DNA from: an uncultured Chloroflexia bacterium
Lineage (GTDB): Bacteria; Chloroflexota; Limnocylindria; Limnocylindrales; CSP1-4
Assembly (NCBI GenBank): GCA_963711105.1
Contig: CAVQCV010000005.1
Location: 905,074 to 969,073, forward strand
Reading direction: 5' to 3'
DNA: 64,000 bases
Position numbers and translations under genes: made by a program. Under the pieces are notes generated by a model that was not told the origin of the DNA, did not search any database, and saw nothing but the letters and a program-made list of their open reading frames with translations. The first letter of the stretch is position 1. Each line of letters starts with the position of its first letter. This document shows, piece after piece, positions 53,868 to 62,226 of the stretch.

Positions 53868-55157
53868 GTGCCGGGAGCCCTCGTTCGATACGTCAAGAGC
53901 TTCACCGGTTTCGGCCGGAATGCCCGCCTGTTCCTGGTTACGACCATCGTCTTCGGGGCGGCGACGGGCCTGTACTGGGCCGACTTCAACCTGTACCTGG
54001 ACAAGATCGGCGTGAGCCGGGGCATGATCGGGGGGCTCATGTCCGTGAGCCAGCTCGCCGCGGTGGTGGTGTCGTTCCCCTGCGGGGCGCTCTCGAACCG
54101 CATCGGCCGGCGGGCGGTCATGGCCGGCGGCATGGGCCTGGTGGCGCTGGCCTTCCTGGCGGTTCTGCCGGGCGACCCGATCCTGCTCGTGCTGGGCGTG
54201 GCCGCCCTCGGCGCGGGCACTCAGGCCGTCTACGTGGTCCAGGTCCCCTACATCGCCGAGCAGACGCGGAGCGAGGAACGCAACGCGTACTTCGCCATCT
54301 GGGCGGCCATCGGCAACGTCACCTACCTCATCGCCACGCTGGCAGGCGGTTTCCTGGCCGAGGATCTGGCCCGCAGTCTCGGTCTGGGCGGCGGAGCGGG
54401 ACCGTACCGCCTCCTGATCGGGGCCACGGCCGCCCTGGCGGCGCTCTCGCTGGCGTCGACCTGGCTTCTCTCGAGCGACCGGCCCGGGCCGGCCGAACGA
54501 ATCGTCTCCAGTCTGGGCGGGCGGCTCGGCATCGTCGTGTCGGATAGACGGCTGTTCGCGAAGCTCCTTCTGCCAGGCTTTATCACCGCCCTCGGCGCCG
54601 GTCAGCTCATTCCGTTCCTCAACCTGTTCGTGCAGACCAAGTTCGATCTCGATCTGGCCGGGGTGAACGCCGTCCTGGCCGTCACCAGCCTCGGCACCAC
54701 GATTGCCATCCTGGCTCAGCCGGCGATCGCGAACCGGTTCGGGCGCATCGGCTCGATCGTTCTGGTCCAGGGCGTGAGCATCCCATTCCTGGTCGTCCTG
54801 GGCTTCTCGCCGATCCTGTGGAGCGTGATCATGGCCATGGCCGTCCGCAATTCGCTCATGAATGCGGGCAGCCCCATCTTCGACGCCTTCGCCATGGACC
54901 GCGTCTCCGCGGCCGAGCGGGCGACCCTGAGCGCCGGCATGACCCTGCTCTGGTCGCTCGGCTGGACGATCGCGCCCCTGTACTACGGCGCGCTCCAGAG
55001 CACGCTCGGCTTCACGGCCGGCTACACGGTCGATTTCGTGACGATCATCGTCCTCTACACGCTCTCGACCAGCCTCCTGTGGCGCTGGTTCCACGGGGCG
55101 GAGGCCGGCACGACGGCCCAGCCGGCCTCGGCGGCGGAGCCGGTCGCTCAGCCGTAG
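53868..55157 (+). CDS. MFS transporter
   Basis: GTG with GGAGGGG upstream. 12 hydrophobic segments. MFS loop motif GALSNRIGRR. Confidence 0.9.
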   Translation: MPGALVRYVKSFTGFGRNARLFLVTTIVFGAATGLYWADFNLYLDKIGVSRGMIGGLMSVSQLAAVVVSFPCGALSNRIGRRAVMAGGMGLVALAFLAVLPGDPILLVLGVAALGAGTQAVYVVQVPYIAEQTRSEERNAYFAIWAAIGNVTYLIATLAGGFLAEDLARSLGLGGGAGPYRLLIGATAALAALSLASTWLLSSDRPGPAERIVSSLGGRLGIVVSDRRLFAKLLLPGFITALGAGQLIPFLNLFVQTKFDLDLAGVNAVLAVTSLGTTIAILAQPAIANRFGRIGSIVLVQGVSIPFLVVLGFSPILWSVIMAMAVRNSLMNAGSPIFDAFAMDRVSAAERATLSAGMTLLWSLGWTIAPLYYGALQSTLGFTAGYTVDFVTIIVLYTLSTSLLWRWFHGAEAGTTAQPASAAEPVAQP

Positions 55158-55816
55158 TAGAGCGTGAGCATGTCCCAGTTCTCGGCGAGGTCGTAGATCG
55201 CGATCCCGATCAGCATCAGGCCGCCGACGAAGTTGATGGCCCGTGAATGCATGGCGAACCAGCGCGTCAGGTTGCGCTGCAATGCGCCCGACATCAGCGA
55301 GATGGCCAGGAGCGGCAGCCCGAAGCCGAGCCCGAACCAGGCGAACGCCCAGAACTGGGTCAGCGCCTCGCCCAGCGTGAACGAGTAGACGAAGATCGCC
55401 ACGACCAGCGGCCCGGAGCACGGCATCGCGATCGGGCCGTAGAGGAGACCGTAGGTGTAGGCGTTCAGGGCGGGGTGTCGCAGCAGCGGAACCTTGACCT
55501 GGGGCAGCCGGTAGAACGGATTTCGATTGAAGAGCAGCAGGATGCCGAGCACGGTGATGGCCACGATCGCCAGCGGGATGACGATGGCCAGGACCCTGCC
55601 GATCGAGACCGAAAGCAGCGCGATCAGCGCGCCCAAAGCCAGCATCGCCGTCAGCACGCCGGCCAGGACGAAGAGGCCCATCACGTAGCGGAGCCGCCCC
55701 TGGCCCACTCCGGCCGTCCCGCTCAGATAGGCCAGGAAGCCCGGGTAGAGGGGCAGGACGCAGGGGCTCGCGGTCGCAAGAAGCCCGAAAGTGAGCGACG
55801 TAAGGGCGACGTCCAT
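55148..55816 (-). CDS. ccdA: Cytochrome c biogenesis / thiol-disulfide electron transporter CcdA
   Basis: ATG 55816: MDVALTSLTFGLLATASPCVLPLYPGFLAYL...GPIAMPCSGP (two conserved Cys). Confidence 0.88.
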   Translation of the reverse strand: MDVALTSLTFGLLATASPCVLPLYPGFLAYLSGTAGVGQGRLRYVMGLFVLAGVLTAMLALGALIALLSVSIGRVLAIVIPLAIVAITVLGILLLFNRNPFYRLPQVKVPLLRHPALNAYTYGLLYGPIAMPCSGPLVVAIFVYSFTLGEALTQFWAFAWFGLGFGLPLLAISLMSGALQRNLTRWFAMHSRAINFVGGLMLIGIAIYDLAENWDMLTLYYG

Positions 55817-55820
55817 CCGG

Positions 55821-60468: not shown

Positions 60469-60546
60469 GTTCAGATTGACGAACCAGACCCAAATTCCGT
60501 CCCGCGCCGGCCTGGACCCCCGGCAAACCCGATACCCGCCGCCTCC

Positions 60547-62226
60547 CTAGGTCGCCGCAGCCTCGCCCGGGGCCGCGCCAGGGGCCGCGCCAGGGCCTCC
60601 GTCCGGGGCCGCGCCCGGGGCTCGGCCCGTCGCCGTCACCGTCTGCATCACCGGATCCCAGCGCGCTCGGACGCCGAGCTCCGGCCGCGCGGCCGATGCC
60701 CTTCGCAGATACTCGGCCGCGCCCACTTCGTCGCCGGAATGGGCCGCCACCGCCGCCCGGGCGTAGAGCGCGAAGGGGTCGTCCGCGGCGTGGGCCGGCA
60801 GCCCGTCCAGACCCGCCTCCGCCTCGTCGGTCCGGCCCAGCTGGGCGTAGCACGCGGCCAGCTCCCCGACGGCGCGCGAGCTTCTGGGCGAGGCCACGGC
60901 CGATGACGTCAGGAACGGCACGGCCGCTTCCGGATTGCCGGACATGCGCTCCAGAAGGCCCATCGTTTGCTGGAACTCGGGATGCAGCGGCGCGGCCGAG
61001 AGAGCCCGCCGGGCGGACGTGCGCGCCTCGCTGAACCGGCCCAGATCCATCAGCACCAGGGCCCGCATCTCGTGGAGGTCGGCCCGATCCGGCCAGGCCG
61101 AGACCGCCTTGTCCGTGTCGGTGAGGGCCGCCTCCTCGCGCCCTGTCGAGTACTCGAACAAGGCCCGTACGATTTCCAGCGGGTCGCGCTGCCGCGCACC
61201 GTCCGCCGACGCCACAGCCTGCTGGACCCGGGCGTACCCCTCCTCGAAGCGGCCGGCACCGTACAGCGCGAACAGCTGGGCCACGACGACCTTATCGCGA
61301 GGCAGGGCCATCAGCCGCGTCGTCACCGCGTCCGCTTCCTCCGTGCGACCCAATCCCCGCAGCACTCCGATGTACCCAACCAGGATGTGGCCGTCCAGCG
61401 GAGCCATCTCGAGCGCCCGTTCGTAGCCCCACAACGCATCCTCGTAGCGCGTCATCAGGCGCAGGGCATCCGCGGCGAACATCATCGGCACCGGATCGCC
61501 CGGCTGCTTGGCCATTTGCGTGCGCGCCAGGTCGAACGCCTCCTGGTAGCGCCCTTCGAGGATCAGCAAGTGCGGGTGCGACACCCTGCGCCCGACCATC
61601 AGGTCCGAGAGGGCGCCCATGTGGATCGTGCTGAAGACGGCCAGCGCTGCCACGGGCAGGGCCCACTCCGGGTAGCCGGTCGCGATCAGGCCGAAGAAGA
61701 CGGCGGCGACGAAGATCAGGCCGACGACCCGCGAGGCCGTCTCGGCCGGCCTGCCCGTGACGAGCGTCGTCAGGTCCCGGAGGACGTTGCCACCGTCCAG
61801 GCCCGGGAAGGGCATCAAATTGAGGAAGCTCCAGCCCAGGTTGACCCAGAGCAGGTCCTCGATCAGCGGCTCGCTGCCCAGGGCGGGCTTGAGCAGCACG
61901 AGCAGGGCGACGAAACCGCCGAAGACGACGCCGATGAGCGGGCCCGCGGCCGAGACCAGGATCATCTGGCGGGGCGGCAGGCGAACGCCCATCGTGGCGC
62001 CGCCGGCGGCGTACAGGCGAATGGACGGCGAAACGCCGAAGGCGTCGAACATGGCCGCGTGAGCCAGCTCGTGCATCAGCACCGAGAAGGTGACCACGGC
62101 CAGCCACTCCGGGAGCTGCTCCGGCGTGCGCCAGGCCAGGCCGAGCAGCAACATGACCCCGATGAAGTCGACGCCGATAGCCACCGGGAAGCCGACGAAC
62201 TTGAACTTGATGGCCACGCTGTCCAT
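60547..62226 (-). CDS. M50 (site-2 protease) family metalloprotease with a C-terminal TPR domain (paralog 2)
   Basis: MDSVAIKFKFVGFPVAIGVDF...VLMHELAHAA...NLMPFPGLDGG, then about 330 aa of TPR-like repeats and an AP/GA-rich tail. Confidence 0.85.
   Translation of the reverse strand: MDSVAIKFKFVGFPVAIGVDFIGVMLLLGLAWRTPEQLPEWLAVVTFSVLMHELAHAAMFDAFGVSPSIRLYAAGGATMGVRLPPRQMILVSAAGPLIGVVFGGFVALLVLLKPALGSEPLIEDLLWVNLGWSFLNLMPFPGLDGGNVLRDLTTLVTGRPAETASRVVGLIFVAAVFFGLIATGYPEWALPVAALAVFSTIHMGALSDLMVGRRVSHPHLLILEGRYQEAFDLARTQMAKQPGDPVPMMFAADALRLMTRYEDALWGYERALEMAPLDGHILVGYIGVLRGLGRTEEADAVTTRLMALPRDKVVVAQLFALYGAGRFEEGYARVQQAVASADGARQRDPLEIVRALFEYSTGREEAALTDTDKAVSAWPDRADLHEMRALVLMDLGRFSEARTSARRALSAAPLHPEFQQTMGLLERMSGNPEAAVPFLTSSAVASPRSSRAVGELAACYAQLGRTDEAEAGLDGLPAHAADDPFALYARAAVAAHSGDEVGAAEYLRRASAARPELGVRARWDPVMQTVTATGRAPGAAPDGGPGAAPGAAPGEAAAT

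What the first reader, a model, noticed from the sequence alone, without database searches (positions are those of the whole stretch)
55148..62226. Minus-strand block: two M50 site-2-protease/TPR paralogs bracket an ECF sigma / giant anti-sigma pair, followed by TlpA-like redoxin and CcdA
Six co-oriented, tightly spaced genes read M50-TPR (60547-62226), ECF sigma (59893-60468), 620-aa anti-sigma-like protein (58034-59896, ATGA-coupled to sigma), second M50 protease (56547-57875), CxxC redoxin lipoprotein (55821-56447) and CcdA (55148-55816).

In established systems (RseP/RasP type), an anti-sigma factor is released by one site-2 protease that is usually encoded elsewhere. Here two S2P paralogs are physically wired to the sigma/anti-sigma pair. 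The anti-sigma carries its own DsbA-type oxidoreductase domain, while the downstream genes encode the opposing reductant pathway (CcdA to TlpA).

My inference is an envelope thiol-redox or secretion-stress sensing module that works by regulated intramembrane proteolysis. I do not recognise this combination as a described system.
Basis: partly seen in the sequence, partly recalled or inferred. Interest (0 to 1): 0.8.

Follow-up and report, generated by a model that had tools for sequence, protein, structure and literature searches.

The report
ECF sigma cassette between site-2-protease paralogs
The six genes are real, but they form several separate units in a shuffled envelope locus of uncultured Limnocylindria (Chloroflexota): a self-promoted sigma factor with a probable membrane anti-sigma of a new type, beside two intramembrane proteases and a thiol-reducing pair whose link to the sigma factor is plausible but not obligatory.

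Summary
All six ORFs, their domains and the ATGA sigma/620-aa overlap are confirmed. The lineage is Limnocylindria (Chloroflexota).

**Solid core: the sigma plus 620-aa pair**
- In 22/22 related loci the two genes are translationally coupled.
- All 22 are preceded by one ECF-type promoter (GGGAC-N17-CGTC), about 5 nt before the ATG, so the mRNA is probably leaderless. The promoter occurs nowhere else in 2.07 Mb.
- The partner keeps a roughly 45-aa cytoplasmic motif and one TM helix. Its ectodomain varies: SecD-P1 only, P1+DsbA, P1+DsbA+LysM, DsbA(+LysM), or LysM only.
- This is typical of an anti-sigma, but it is not a recognisable class I/ZAS domain.

**Proteases and redox pair**
- Both M50 genes are PDZ-less, SpoIVFB/mjS2P-like site-2 proteases with TPR(-like) tails.
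- The carB–MFS interval holds only these gene families, in at least eight different orders.
- The six-gene order is unique to this window.
- The closest relative (91–93% nt identity) lacks the 2.5-kb sigma cassette.
- Four loci have the sigma pair without an M50 gene, and four have M50 without an intact sigma pair.
- Redoxin–CcdA always follows M50b, which has its own conserved upstream element.

**Verdict:** a new variant of a known kind. The proteolysis link is plausible but unproven, and DsbA-based redox sensing is not general.

The parts
60547..62226 (-). M50TPR: a six-TM, PDZ-less site-2 protease core (HELAH, LDGG) with a C-terminal TPR domain. It lies 46 nt after carB and upstream of the ECF promoter, so it is outside the sigma transcription unit.
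   Evidence: Pfam M50 plus TPR. The profile matches mjS2P 3B4R (E 3.5e-18) and SpoIVFB 8VJL. About 15 orthologues, those sampled being in Limnocylindrales. In L167/L168 its start overlaps the carB stop.
60474..60504 (-). ECF-type autoregulatory promoter CGGGACGGAATTTGGGTCTGGTTCGTCAATC (GGGAC-N17-CGTC). It ends 5 nt before the sigma ATG and there is no Shine-Dalgarno sequence, so the mRNA is probably leaderless.
   Evidence: Conserved upstream of every sigma orthologue. The PWM gives 22 strong hits in 2.07 Mb, all at sigma orthologue starts, including 9 loci not used for training (L083 remnant among them); next-best elsewhere are 16-19 bits. It is the only site in the 64-kb window.
59893..60468 (-). 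ECF (group 4) sigma factor, 191 aa, with a conserved N-terminal extension of about 30 aa.
   Evidence: Sigma70_r2 plus r4. Best NCBIfam hit is SigE-fam_strep, below its cutoff. Nearest PDB entries are SigE and SigW. Orthologues are 68-75% identical.
58034..59896 (-). P620, the probable anti-sigma factor. It has a conserved cytoplasmic motif (DEEVLRGIRRHMAASEPLVPQPPAW), one Gly-rich TM helix (about residues 63-81, N-in), and an ectodomain of SecD-type P1 domain, DsbA-like domain (CTAC, cis-Pro, second Cys pair) and LysM.
   Evidence: ATGA overlap with sigma. Coupled in 22/22 loci with a conserved N-terminal motif. Pfam, PDB and AF2 evidence. Invariant C367/C370/C419/C468/P491. No known anti-sigma domain detected.
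58007..60504 (-). A 2.5-kb presence/absence cassette consisting of promoter, sigma, P620 and about 30 nt. It is missing from the closest relative.
   Evidence: blastn against L163: the flanks align at 93.0% and 91.5% identity and abut with an 8-nt overlap. Junction alignment.
57947..57956 (-). Conserved GC-TAACCT-GA element (a -10-like TANNNT hexamer) 79 nt upstream of M50b. It is a putative ECF-independent signal for M50b.
   Evidence: Present 35-93 nt upstream of M50b in 15/15 loci whatever gene precedes it. It is the only exact copy in the window. No Rfam match.
56547..57875 (-). M50b: a second SpoIVFB/mjS2P-like site-2 protease (HELGH, LDGG) with a disordered R/K-rich linker and a C-terminal TPR-like helical-repeat domain.
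   Evidence: Pfam M50. AF2 pLDDT 83.7. Foldseek gives 3B4R TM 0.68 and SpoIVFB, with TPR chaperones matching the tail. More than 120 orthologues.
55821..56447 (-). TlpA/ResA-like thiol-disulfide reductase, probably a lipoprotein (LIVAAC lipobox, WCPTC active site).
   Evidence: Pfam Redoxin/AhpC-TSA. NCBIfam TlpA/ResA hits are below cutoff. It always lies directly after M50b when present.
55148..55816 (-). CcdA-type (DsbD_TM) electron-transfer membrane protein, 4 nt after the redoxin gene and convergent with the MFS gene.
   Evidence: Pfam DsbD_TM at 35.8 bits, above the 27.1 cutoff. Orthologues are 78-99% identical in L085, L163, L164, L166 and L169.

Best explanation
The block is a composite of at least three units inside a lineage-specific, frequently rearranged 'envelope' interval between carB and an MFS/ArsR/M16 group in Limnocylindria (Chloroflexota).

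Unit 1 (well supported) is a self-contained, autoregulated ECF cassette. A GGGAC-N17-CGTC promoter drives a probably leaderless sigma mRNA, translationally coupled to a single-pass type II membrane protein (P620). I infer that the conserved ~45-aa cytoplasmic N-terminus of P620 holds the sigma factor at the membrane, acting as an anti-sigma. This would be a short, two-helix, non-ZAS type.

The ectodomain is modular. A SecD-P1-like domain is its commonest part; DsbA-like and LysM domains are optional additions. I infer that it monitors unfolded or unoxidised exported proteins near the Sec exit site and the cell wall. In this genome it is also itself a membrane-anchored disulfide oxidase. Release of sigma would therefore raise both the inhibitor and the effector, giving homeostatic feedback.

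Unit 2 is carB-M50TPR. Unit 3 is M50b-redoxin-CcdA, with its own conserved upstream element. M50TPR and M50b are SpoIVFB/mjS2P-like site-2 proteases with cytoplasmic TPR(-like) tails. The most likely, but unproven, link is that one or both cleave the Gly-rich TM helix of P620 to free sigma. The link is facultative, because each partner occurs without the other in close relatives.

Shown by computation: genes, domains, folds, coupling, promoter, synteny statistics and the cassette indel. Inferred: sigma binding, the signal, proteolysis and the feedback loop.
For: Sigma/P620 core:
- The pair is present and overlapping (4 or 10 nt) in 22/22 loci. The N-terminal motif is conserved even when the ectodomain differs.
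- The promoter PWM gives 22 hits in 2.07 Mb, all immediately upstream of sigma orthologues, 9 of them in loci not used to build it.
- Positive residues precede the single TM helix, indicating N-in topology.
- P1 and DsbA homology: HMM E 3e-29 and 7e-19; Foldseek TM 0.74-0.78 and 0.76. CxxC, cis-Pro and a second Cys pair are invariant.
- The exhaustive HMMER search shows about 45 clusters with N-terminal motif + TM + P1 and bimodal lengths, P1 only versus P1+DsbA.

M50 genes:
- Catalytic motifs are invariant.
- The closest structures are mjS2P and the SpoIVFB:pro-sigmaK complex, not RseP.

Linkage:
- Among 21 fully bounded loci, 13 of 17 intact sigma pairs have at least one adjacent M50, in at least eight gene orders.
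- No unrelated gene family ever lies in the carB-MFS interval.
- Seventy stand-alone DsbA paralogue loci show no M50 or CcdA neighbour.
Against: Anti-sigma assignment:
- No known anti-sigma domain is detectable in the N-terminus at Pfam E<=10.
- AF2 confidence for residues 1-100 is low.

Protease link:
- M50 genes remain intact without the sigma pair in L163, L164, L169 and L083. The last carries a deletion remnant.
- Four sigma-pair loci have no M50 (L005, L009, L010, L048).
- No ECF promoter precedes M50b, redoxin or M50TPR. M50b has its own conserved element.
- Only 3 of 73 more distant M50 homologue loci have any ECF sigma in their flanks.
- All linkage evidence comes from one bacterial order with conserved flanking synteny, so the loci are not independent.
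- No site-1 protease was identified.

Redox sensing:
- DsbA-less orthologues argue against redox as the general signal.
Confidence: 0.5

Rival explanations
1. The protease genes have nothing to do with the sigma factor. M50b forms a working unit with TlpA-like redoxin and CcdA, and M50TPR belongs with carB. Possible roles include membrane-protein or signal-peptide clearance, or maturation of a thiol-dependent exported protein. They lie beside the sigma cassette only because all of these genes were inherited in one variable interval.
For: - Redoxin-CcdA lies directly downstream of M50b in 6/6 cases and never without it.
- The M50b upstream element is conserved in 15/15 loci regardless of position relative to sigma.
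- Intact M50 genes occur in four loci lacking an intact sigma pair, including a 94%-identical orthologue in L163.
- The M50TPR start overlaps the carB stop in L167/L168.
- Distant M50 homologues are not ECF-linked.
Against: - Gene order inside the interval is permuted at least eight ways, yet the families stay together and no foreign gene intrudes.
- M50TPR lies directly upstream of the sigma promoter in all 6 loci that have both.
- SpoIVFB-like S2Ps are known sigma-pathway proteases (established knowledge; 8VJL hit).
- P620 has the type II orientation and helix-breaking Gly residues typical of S2P substrates (direct reading).
Confidence: 0.35
2. One reading: all six genes are one dedicated, co-transcribed thiol-redox sensing module. 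The DsbA domain of the anti-sigma senses redox state, both S2Ps release sigma, and TlpA/CcdA are the opposing reductant output.
For: - All six genes are co-oriented with no detectable terminator.
- The functional theme of the interval is coherent.
- One other locus (L085) has sigma-P620-M50b-redoxin-CcdA.
- Read-through from the ECF promoter into M50b-redoxin-CcdA is not excluded in this genome.
Against: - The six-gene order is unique to the window among 21 bounded loci.
- Redoxin-CcdA is absent from 14/17 sigma-pair loci.
- M50TPR lies upstream of the ECF promoter.
- M50b has a separate conserved signal.
- The cassette is absent from a relative whose flanks are 91-93% identical and whose other four genes are intact.
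- DsbA is missing in many orthologous partners.
Confidence: 0.1
3. P620 is not an anti-sigma. It is simply the main effector gene of the sigma operon (a Sec-proximal disulfide oxidase), and sigma is controlled only transcriptionally or by an unlinked factor.
For: - No recognisable anti-sigma domain.
- The cytoplasmic part is only about 60 aa.
- The only promoter copy found drives this operon itself.
Against: - The cytoplasmic N-terminal motif plus TM helix is the one invariant part, while the supposed effector domains are swapped or lost (LysM only, P1 only, DsbA only). That is the opposite of what an effector would show.
- The two genes overlap in 22/22 loci.
- Sigma and P620 are always gained or lost together.
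Confidence: 0.12

Closest known systems
Membrane-anchored ECF sigma/anti-sigma pairs released by regulated intramembrane proteolysis (E. coli sigmaE-RseA-DegS-RseP; B. subtilis sigmaW-RsiW-PrsW-RasP; M. tuberculosis SigK/L/M with Rip1)
   Same: - ECF sigma with r2 and r4 only.
- Co-transcribed single-pass type II membrane partner.
- Autoregulatory promoter of the AAC/CGT type.
- An M50 protease is available.
   Different: - The partner lacks a class I/ZAS anti-sigma domain.
- The ectodomain (SecD-P1, DsbA, LysM) has not been described for an anti-sigma; nothing was found in the literature searches.
- The S2Ps are PDZ-less with TPR tails and are encoded next to the pair rather than elsewhere.
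- No site-1 protease is evident.
SpoIVFB (B. subtilis) and mjS2P: PDZ-less, six-TM site-2 proteases with a cytoplasmic C-terminal regulatory domain
   Same: - These are the best sequence and structure matches for both M50 genes.
- Core of about 200 aa with HExxH and LDG motifs.
- A C-terminal soluble domain follows the last TM helix.
- SpoIVFB acts in a sigma-factor pathway.
   Different: - The C-terminal domain is TPR(-like) instead of CBS.
- The presumed substrate is an anti-sigma rather than a pro-sigma.
- No BofA/SpoIVFA-like inhibitors are seen.
Actinobacterial and Firmicute membrane-anchored DsbA-like oxidases (M. tuberculosis DsbA Rv2969c, C. diphtheriae DsbA/TsdA/MdbA, B. subtilis BdbD)
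   Same: - Thioredoxin_4 fold.
- CxxC motif and cis-Pro loop.
- An extra structural Cys pair.
- N-terminal membrane anchor.
   Different: Here the domain is fused behind a SecD-type P1 domain and a conserved cytoplasmic motif. It is also encoded in an ECF sigma operon.
SecD/SecDF P1 (periplasmic) domain
   Same: The full P1 base plus head fold is present (3AQO: E 3e-29, TM 0.74-0.78). It follows one TM helix, as in SecD TM1.
   Different: The remaining 11 TM helices and the proton pathway are absent, so this is not a translocon motor. The exhaustive search shows a wider, uncharacterised set of single-pass P1 proteins with various cytoplasmic N-termini.
CcdA-ResA/TlpA reducing pathway (and M. 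tuberculosis DipZ, a CcdA-TlpA fusion in the SigK regulon; from my own knowledge)
   Same: A WCxxC lipoprotein reductase lies next to a DsbD_TM electron conduit.
   Different: No ECF promoter lies in front of it. It is tied to an S2P gene (M50b) in 6/6 loci, a pairing I do not know to have been described.

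Membership tests
ECF (group 4) sigma-70 factors | Only regions sigma2 and sigma4; about 190 aa | tested here: met
   Pfam Sigma70_r2 (5.5e-14) and r4/r4_2; TIGR02937 sigma70-ECF at 73.7 bits, above the 42.9 cutoff.
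ECF (group 4) sigma-70 factors | Autoregulatory promoter with a G/AAC-type -35 and a CGT-type -10 | tested here: met
   GGGAC-N17-CGTC is conserved at every orthologue and found nowhere else in 2.07 Mb. Its function was not tested experimentally.
ECF (group 4) sigma-70 factors | Assignment to a named ECF group (Staron/Casas-Pastor classification) | not testable with these tools
   No group HMMs were available. The best NCBIfam hit, SigE-fam_strep, scores 92 bits against a 141.6 cutoff.
Class I anti-sigma factors (ASD/ZAS: RseA, RsiW, RslA, RsrA) | N-terminal four-helix anti-sigma domain of about 80-90 aa, often with HxxxCxxC | tested here: not met
   No Pfam hit at E<=10 for three N-termini. 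There is no Cys in residues 1-60. Only two short helices are predicted (13-30 and 37-48).
Anti-sigma factors in the functional sense | Gene co-transcribed with, and adjacent to, the sigma gene; single-pass N-in membrane protein; conserved cytoplasmic segment | tested here: met
   Overlap in 22/22 loci, a conserved DExILxGLRRxL..VEpLvPxPPxW motif, and one TM helix preceded by Arg residues.
Anti-sigma factors in the functional sense | Physical binding and inhibition of the cognate sigma | not testable with these tools
Site-2 proteases (MEROPS M50) | HExxH in one TM helix and an LDG-type Asp ligand in another | tested here: met
   H54/E55/H58 and D148 are invariant in 9 and in 34 sequences. Pfam M50 scores above cutoff for both genes.
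Site-2 proteases (MEROPS M50) | S2P core fold | tested here: met
   The M50b AF2 model (pLDDT 83.7) matches 3B4R at TM 0.68, and also SpoIVFB. The profile matches 3B4R at E 3.5e-18. M50TPR was tested by sequence only.
RseP/RasP-type S2P (group I) | Extracytoplasmic PDZ domain(s) gating site-1-cleaved substrates | tested here: not met
   No PDZ hit. RseP matches only weakly, over the LDG region.
SpoIVFB-type S2P (group III) | C-terminal cytoplasmic CBS domain | tested here: not met
   The C-terminal domains are TPR (Pfam, M50TPR) or TPR-like (Foldseek, M50b).
DsbA-like thiol-disulfide oxidoreductases | Thioredoxin fold with helical insertion, CxxC motif and cis-Pro loop | tested here: met
   Thioredoxin_4 at 1e-23. 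C367xxC370 and P491 are invariant. Foldseek TM 0.76 to BdbD.
DsbA-like thiol-disulfide oxidoreductases | Oxidising redox potential and a DsbB/VKOR partner | not tested
   No partner was searched for, and redox direction cannot be inferred from sequence.
SecD/SecDF | P1 domain within a 6- or 12-TM RND-like membrane protein | tested here: not met
   The P1 fold is present but there is only one TM helix.
CcdA/DsbD_TM | Six-TM protein with one Cys in each of two PCxxP-like TM motifs | tested here: met
   DsbD_TM scores 35.8 bits against a 27.1 cutoff. 'SPCVLP' and 'MPCSGP' are seen in the translation.
TlpA/ResA-type reductases | Membrane- or lipid-anchored thioredoxin fold with WCxxC | tested here: met
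   Redoxin/AhpC-TSA score above cutoff. WCPTC and a lipobox-like LIVAAC are seen in the translation. The NCBIfam TlpA/ResA equivalogs score below cutoff, so this is family-level membership only.

The most novel reading that the evidence does not exclude
A self-contained, movable RIP module. The SecD-P1/DsbA protein would be at once a Sec-proximal folding catalyst, a sensor of exported unfolded or unoxidised proteins, and the anti-sigma factor. The neighbouring SpoIVFB-like S2Ps would use their cytoplasmic TPR tails to recognise its conserved N-terminal motif (or the bound sigma) and cleave it without a site-1 step.

More broadly, single-pass SecD-P1 domain proteins with diverse cytoplasmic heads would form an unrecognised class of secretion-stress sensors in monoderm Chloroflexota and Actinobacteria.
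Probability: 0.2. Interest if true: 0.75.

Novelty: new variant of a known kind. Interest (0 to 1): 0.5.

Why it matters
If P620 is an anti-sigma, it adds a new sensor architecture to ECF signalling: a SecD-P1 substrate-binding domain, with optional DsbA and LysM domains. It would also be a case where the inhibitor is itself the stress-relieving enzyme.

Genomic adjacency of PDZ-less, TPR-tailed site-2 proteases to an ECF pair is unusual. It offers a handle on how SpoIVFB-type proteases choose substrates outside sporulation.

The conserved promoter, the cassette polymorphism between near-identical genomes, and the natural series of ectodomain variants give ready-made constructs for heterologous tests.

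Limits: the lineage is uncultured, the family is small (tens of clusters), and every mechanistic step is inferred.

Tried and rejected
- **Other ECF promoter copies.** I looked upstream of M50b, redoxin and M50TPR and across the 64-kb window. Only the sigma site exists. Three other GGGAC-N15-18-CGTC matches are fewer than chance expects and lie inside ORFs.
- **Sigma-70 promoter and terminator scan of the block.** One weak plus-strand terminator-like site and no sigma-70 promoters, so it was uninformative at 70% GC.
- **Rfam on the block.** No hits.
- **Pfam on the P620 N-terminus and the M50b tail at E<=10.** Nothing meaningful.
- **Literature.** Searches for ECF/anti-sigma with DsbA, SecD, M50 or Chloroflexi, S2P-TPR, and Limnocylindria sigma factors found no description. 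The supplement of the ECF reclassification paper is not held.
- **M50 subfamily outside Limnocylindrales.** Tested for ECF linkage: 3 of 73 loci, so rejected.
- **Stand-alone DsbA paralogues.** About 70 loci were checked for M50/CcdA neighbours; none were found.
- **Pro-sigmaK-like pro-sequence.** The sigma N-terminal extension is conserved but not hydrophobic enough, so this was not pursued.
- **Insertion versus deletion of the cassette in the window/L163/L169 clade.** A rough NJ tree could not resolve it. Recurrent loss is favoured, because TPR-sigma adjacency recurs in distant clades and L083 shows a deletion scar.

Full report

Yes. The six minus-strand ORFs are present at the stated coordinates.
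- Peptidase_M50 plus TPR (60547-62226)
- Sigma70_r2/r4 (59893-60468)
- SecDF_P1_head, Thioredoxin_4/DSBA and LysM (58034-59896)
- Peptidase_M50 (56547-57875)
- Redoxin (55821-56447)
- DsbD_TM (55148-55816)

The sigma stop and the 620-aa start overlap as ATGA. The two M50 cores are 43% identical, and both keep HExxH and LDGG.

Upstream lies the 3' part of carB. Downstream, convergent, are an MFS transporter and an ArsR-type regulator, followed by an M16/M16 peptidase pair. Related sequences place the window in Limnocylindria/Limnocylindrales, Chloroflexota.

**2. The proteins**

*P620.*
- Profile search against the PDB matches residues ~106-318 to the isolated P1 domain of Thermus SecDF (3AQO, E 2.8e-29). 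Residues ~339-516 match Gram-positive DsbA-like oxidases: C. diphtheriae DsbA/TsdA, M. tuberculosis DsbA, BdbD and MdbA.
- An AF2 model has mean pLDDT 67. The P1, DsbA and LysM domains are confident; residues 1-100 are not. Foldseek gives TM 0.74-0.78 to 3AQO and 0.76 to BdbD.
- C367xxC370, a second Cys pair (C419/C468) and the cis-Pro (P491) are invariant in nine homologues.
- There is one TM helix (~63-81) preceded by Arg residues, so the N-terminus is cytoplasmic.

*The M50 proteins.*
- Both are closest to mjS2P (3B4R, E 3.5e-18) and SpoIVFB (8VJL), not RseP.
- The M50b model (pLDDT 83.7) has an S2P core, an R/K-rich disordered linker and a helical-repeat tail that Foldseek matches to TPR chaperones.
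- Both are therefore PDZ-less S2Ps with TPR(-like) C-terminal domains. By homology with SpoIVFB topology these tails should be cytoplasmic (inference).

*Redoxin and CcdA.* The redoxin has WCPTC and a lipobox-like signal. CcdA has its two TM cysteines (direct reading).

**3. The conserved core is the sigma/P620 pair with its own promoter**

I collected related loci from three sources: genome contigs, metagenome contigs and exact-protein look-ups.

In 22 of 22 loci with a sigma orthologue (68-75% identical), the next ORF overlaps it by 4 or 10 nt. That ORF begins with the same motif, MNE..sDeEIL.G.RRrL.gvEpLvP.PPaW, followed by one TM helix.

Directly upstream of every sigma start lies CGGGACGGAAC-N10-TTCGTCAATC-N5-ATG, that is GGGAC-N17-CGTC, a canonical ECF-type promoter.
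- A PWM of the two blocks finds 22 strong sites in 2.07 Mb on both strands. All are at sigma orthologues, and nine are in loci not used to build the matrix. The next-best scores are 16-19 bits against 27-40.
- The window has exactly one site, at 60474-60504.
- The -10 ends about 10 nt before the ATG and there is no Shine-Dalgarno sequence, so the mRNA is probably leaderless (inference).

**4. The partner behaves like an anti-sigma, but not of a known class**

The cytoplasmic motif plus TM helix is constant. The ectodomain is swapped among orthologous partners:
- P1+DsbA+LysM: window, L005, L085
- P1+DsbA: many loci
- Two P1 domains plus DsbA: L002
- P1 only: L165, L166
- DsbA+LysM: L013
- DsbA only: L048
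- Two LysM domains only: L084

An exhaustive HMMER search with residues 1-320 finds roughly 45 clusters (at 50% identity) that align from the N-terminal motif onward. Their lengths are bimodal, ~320-380 aa (P1 only) and ~530-625 aa.

A constant cytoplasmic head with a variable sensor, strict co-inheritance and translational coupling are the usual hallmarks of an anti-sigma factor. However, no Pfam anti-sigma family matches even at E<=10. There is no HxxxCxxC, and only two short helices are predicted. It fails the class I/ZAS membership test and is at best a short, class II-like anti-sigma. Binding itself could not be tested.

**5. The six genes are not one conserved module**

Twenty-one loci show both boundaries (carB and MFS). 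Writing TPR for M50TPR, b for M50b, [sP] for the sigma pair and [rC] for redoxin-CcdA, the interval reads:

| Order | Loci |
|---|---|
| TPR [sP] b [rC] | window only |
| TPR b [rC] | L163 |
| r TPR b [rC] | L169 |
| b [rC] | L164 |
| b [rC] [sP] | L166 |
| b [sP] | L006, L008, L165 |
| b TPR [sP] | L007 |
| TPR [sP] | L001, L167, L168 |
| [sP] b | L004, L013, L084 |
| [sP] b [rC] | L085 |
| [sP] only | L005, L009, L010, L048 |
| scar + b | L083 |

From this table:
- Thirteen of 17 intact sigma pairs have an adjacent M50 gene. Four have none.
- Four loci keep intact M50 genes without an intact sigma pair.
- Redoxin-CcdA occurs in six loci, always immediately after M50b, and in only 3 of 17 sigma-pair loci.

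L163 is the closest relative. Its flanks are 93.0% and 91.5% identical at the nucleotide level, and its carB, redoxin and CcdA products are 96-99% identical. It lacks a 2.5-kb segment that starts exactly at the -35 of the ECF promoter and ends ~30 nt after the P620 stop, with 8 nt of microhomology at the junction.

L083 retains the promoter and the first sigma codons fused to the last ~75 codons of the P620 homologue. This is a deletion scar.

A rough tree of carB+MFS shows that arrangements follow clades. Sigma-pair presence or absence differs between sister taxa at least three times.

M50b carries its own conserved upstream element, GC-TAACCT-GA, 35-93 nt before the start. It is present in 15/15 loci whatever gene precedes it and is unique in the window. 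M50TPR lies upstream of the ECF promoter, and in L167/L168 it overlaps the carB stop.

The block therefore comprises at least three separately signalled units.

**6. Is there still a functional link?**

Arguments for:
- The carB-MFS interval never contains any other gene family. The only extras seen are a second DsbA (L007) and a second redoxin (L169).
- The families stay together through at least eight different orders.
- M50TPR lies directly upstream of the sigma promoter in all six loci that have both.
- About 70 stand-alone DsbA paralogue loci show no M50 or CcdA neighbour.
- SpoIVFB-type S2Ps are sigma-pathway proteases (established knowledge).
- P620 has the type II orientation and a Gly-rich TM helix typical of S2P substrates (direct reading).

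Arguments against:
- All evidence comes from one order with conserved flanking synteny.
- Each partner survives without the other.
- No promoter is shared.
- Only 3 of 73 more distant M50 homologue loci have an ECF sigma nearby.

I put the probability that either M50 cleaves P620 at about 0.4.

**7. Mechanism I commit to**

Overall confidence is 0.5. Confidence in the sigma/anti-sigma cassette alone is about 0.75.

P620 would tether sigma through its N-terminal helices. Its P1 domain, which in SecDF contacts emerging unfolded pre-proteins (established knowledge), together with DsbA and LysM in this genome, would monitor exported unfolded or unoxidised proteins near the Sec exit site and the wall. 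Stress would lead to removal of P620, most plausibly by the neighbouring S2Ps. Free sigma would then transcribe its own leaderless operon and restore both the oxidase and the inhibitor.

Thiol redox is at most one input, because many orthologues lack DsbA. TlpA/CcdA belong with M50b. In this genome they might be reached by read-through, but that is not shown.

**8. Comparison with known systems, and novelty**

The system works like the RseA/RsiW-type RIP-controlled ECF systems, but differs in four ways:
- the anti-sigma head (non-ASD);
- the sensor (P1/DsbA/LysM);
- the protease type (SpoIVFB-like, TPR instead of CBS, no PDZ);
- the genomic adjacency of the protease genes.

Six literature searches found no description of such an arrangement. 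I rate it a new variant of a known kind with moderate interest (0.5). The architecture and the natural series of variants are attractive. Against that, the family is small, confined to an uncultured lineage, and every mechanistic step is inferred.

Noticed in passing
window 47348-48712 (-): A rhomboid intramembrane protease with N-terminal TPR repeats lies about 7 kb from the block. It is the third TPR-bearing intramembrane protease within 15 kb, and could in principle act as a site-1-like protease.
   Followed up: no
window 49531-52265 (-); also present in the related loci whose flanks extend that far: An M16/M16 peptidase pair is syntenic with the locus in the relatives. In L002 and L086 it directly follows the P620 homologue. 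Whether it plays any role in anti-sigma processing is unknown.
   Followed up: partly
window 58007-60504 vs L163:8870-8877: The promoter-sigma-P620 unit is a clean 2.5-kb presence/absence polymorphism between genomes with 91-93% nt identity, with 8-nt microhomology at the junction. L083:155-505 carries a deletion scar of the same unit.
   Followed up: yes
window 57947-57956 (-); 15 related loci: A conserved GC-TAACCT-GA element, preceded by GGGGAGTTGGCCCTGTC-like sequence, lies 35-93 nt upstream of every M50b gene. It could be a promoter -10 or an operator; which is unresolved.
   Followed up: partly
P0215, P0204, P0241, P0257, P0262, P0224: More distant single-pass proteins carry a SecD-P1-like ectodomain behind different cytoplasmic heads, either zinc ribbons or an 'E/D-L-x-x-W-L...GP' type N-terminus. 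This suggests a wider uncharacterised family of P1-domain membrane sensors. Their gene contexts could not be fetched.
   Followed up: partly
window 60379-60468 (-), sigma residues 1-30: The sigma factor has a conserved N-terminal extension (MMAIVxVERGxxxLLERVG) ahead of region 2. Its function is unknown.
   Followed up: partly
L163:15451-19329; L168:13602-14173: WXG100 gene pairs are inserted near the ArsR/M16 genes in some relatives. In L163 an FtsK/SpoIIIE ATPase (type VII secretion-like) is also present.
   Followed up: no
L009:6224-8144; L089:2786-4438: The P620 homologues are interrupted by a frameshift (L009) or an in-frame stop (L089). These are either sequencing errors or further decay of the cassette.
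   Followed up: partly
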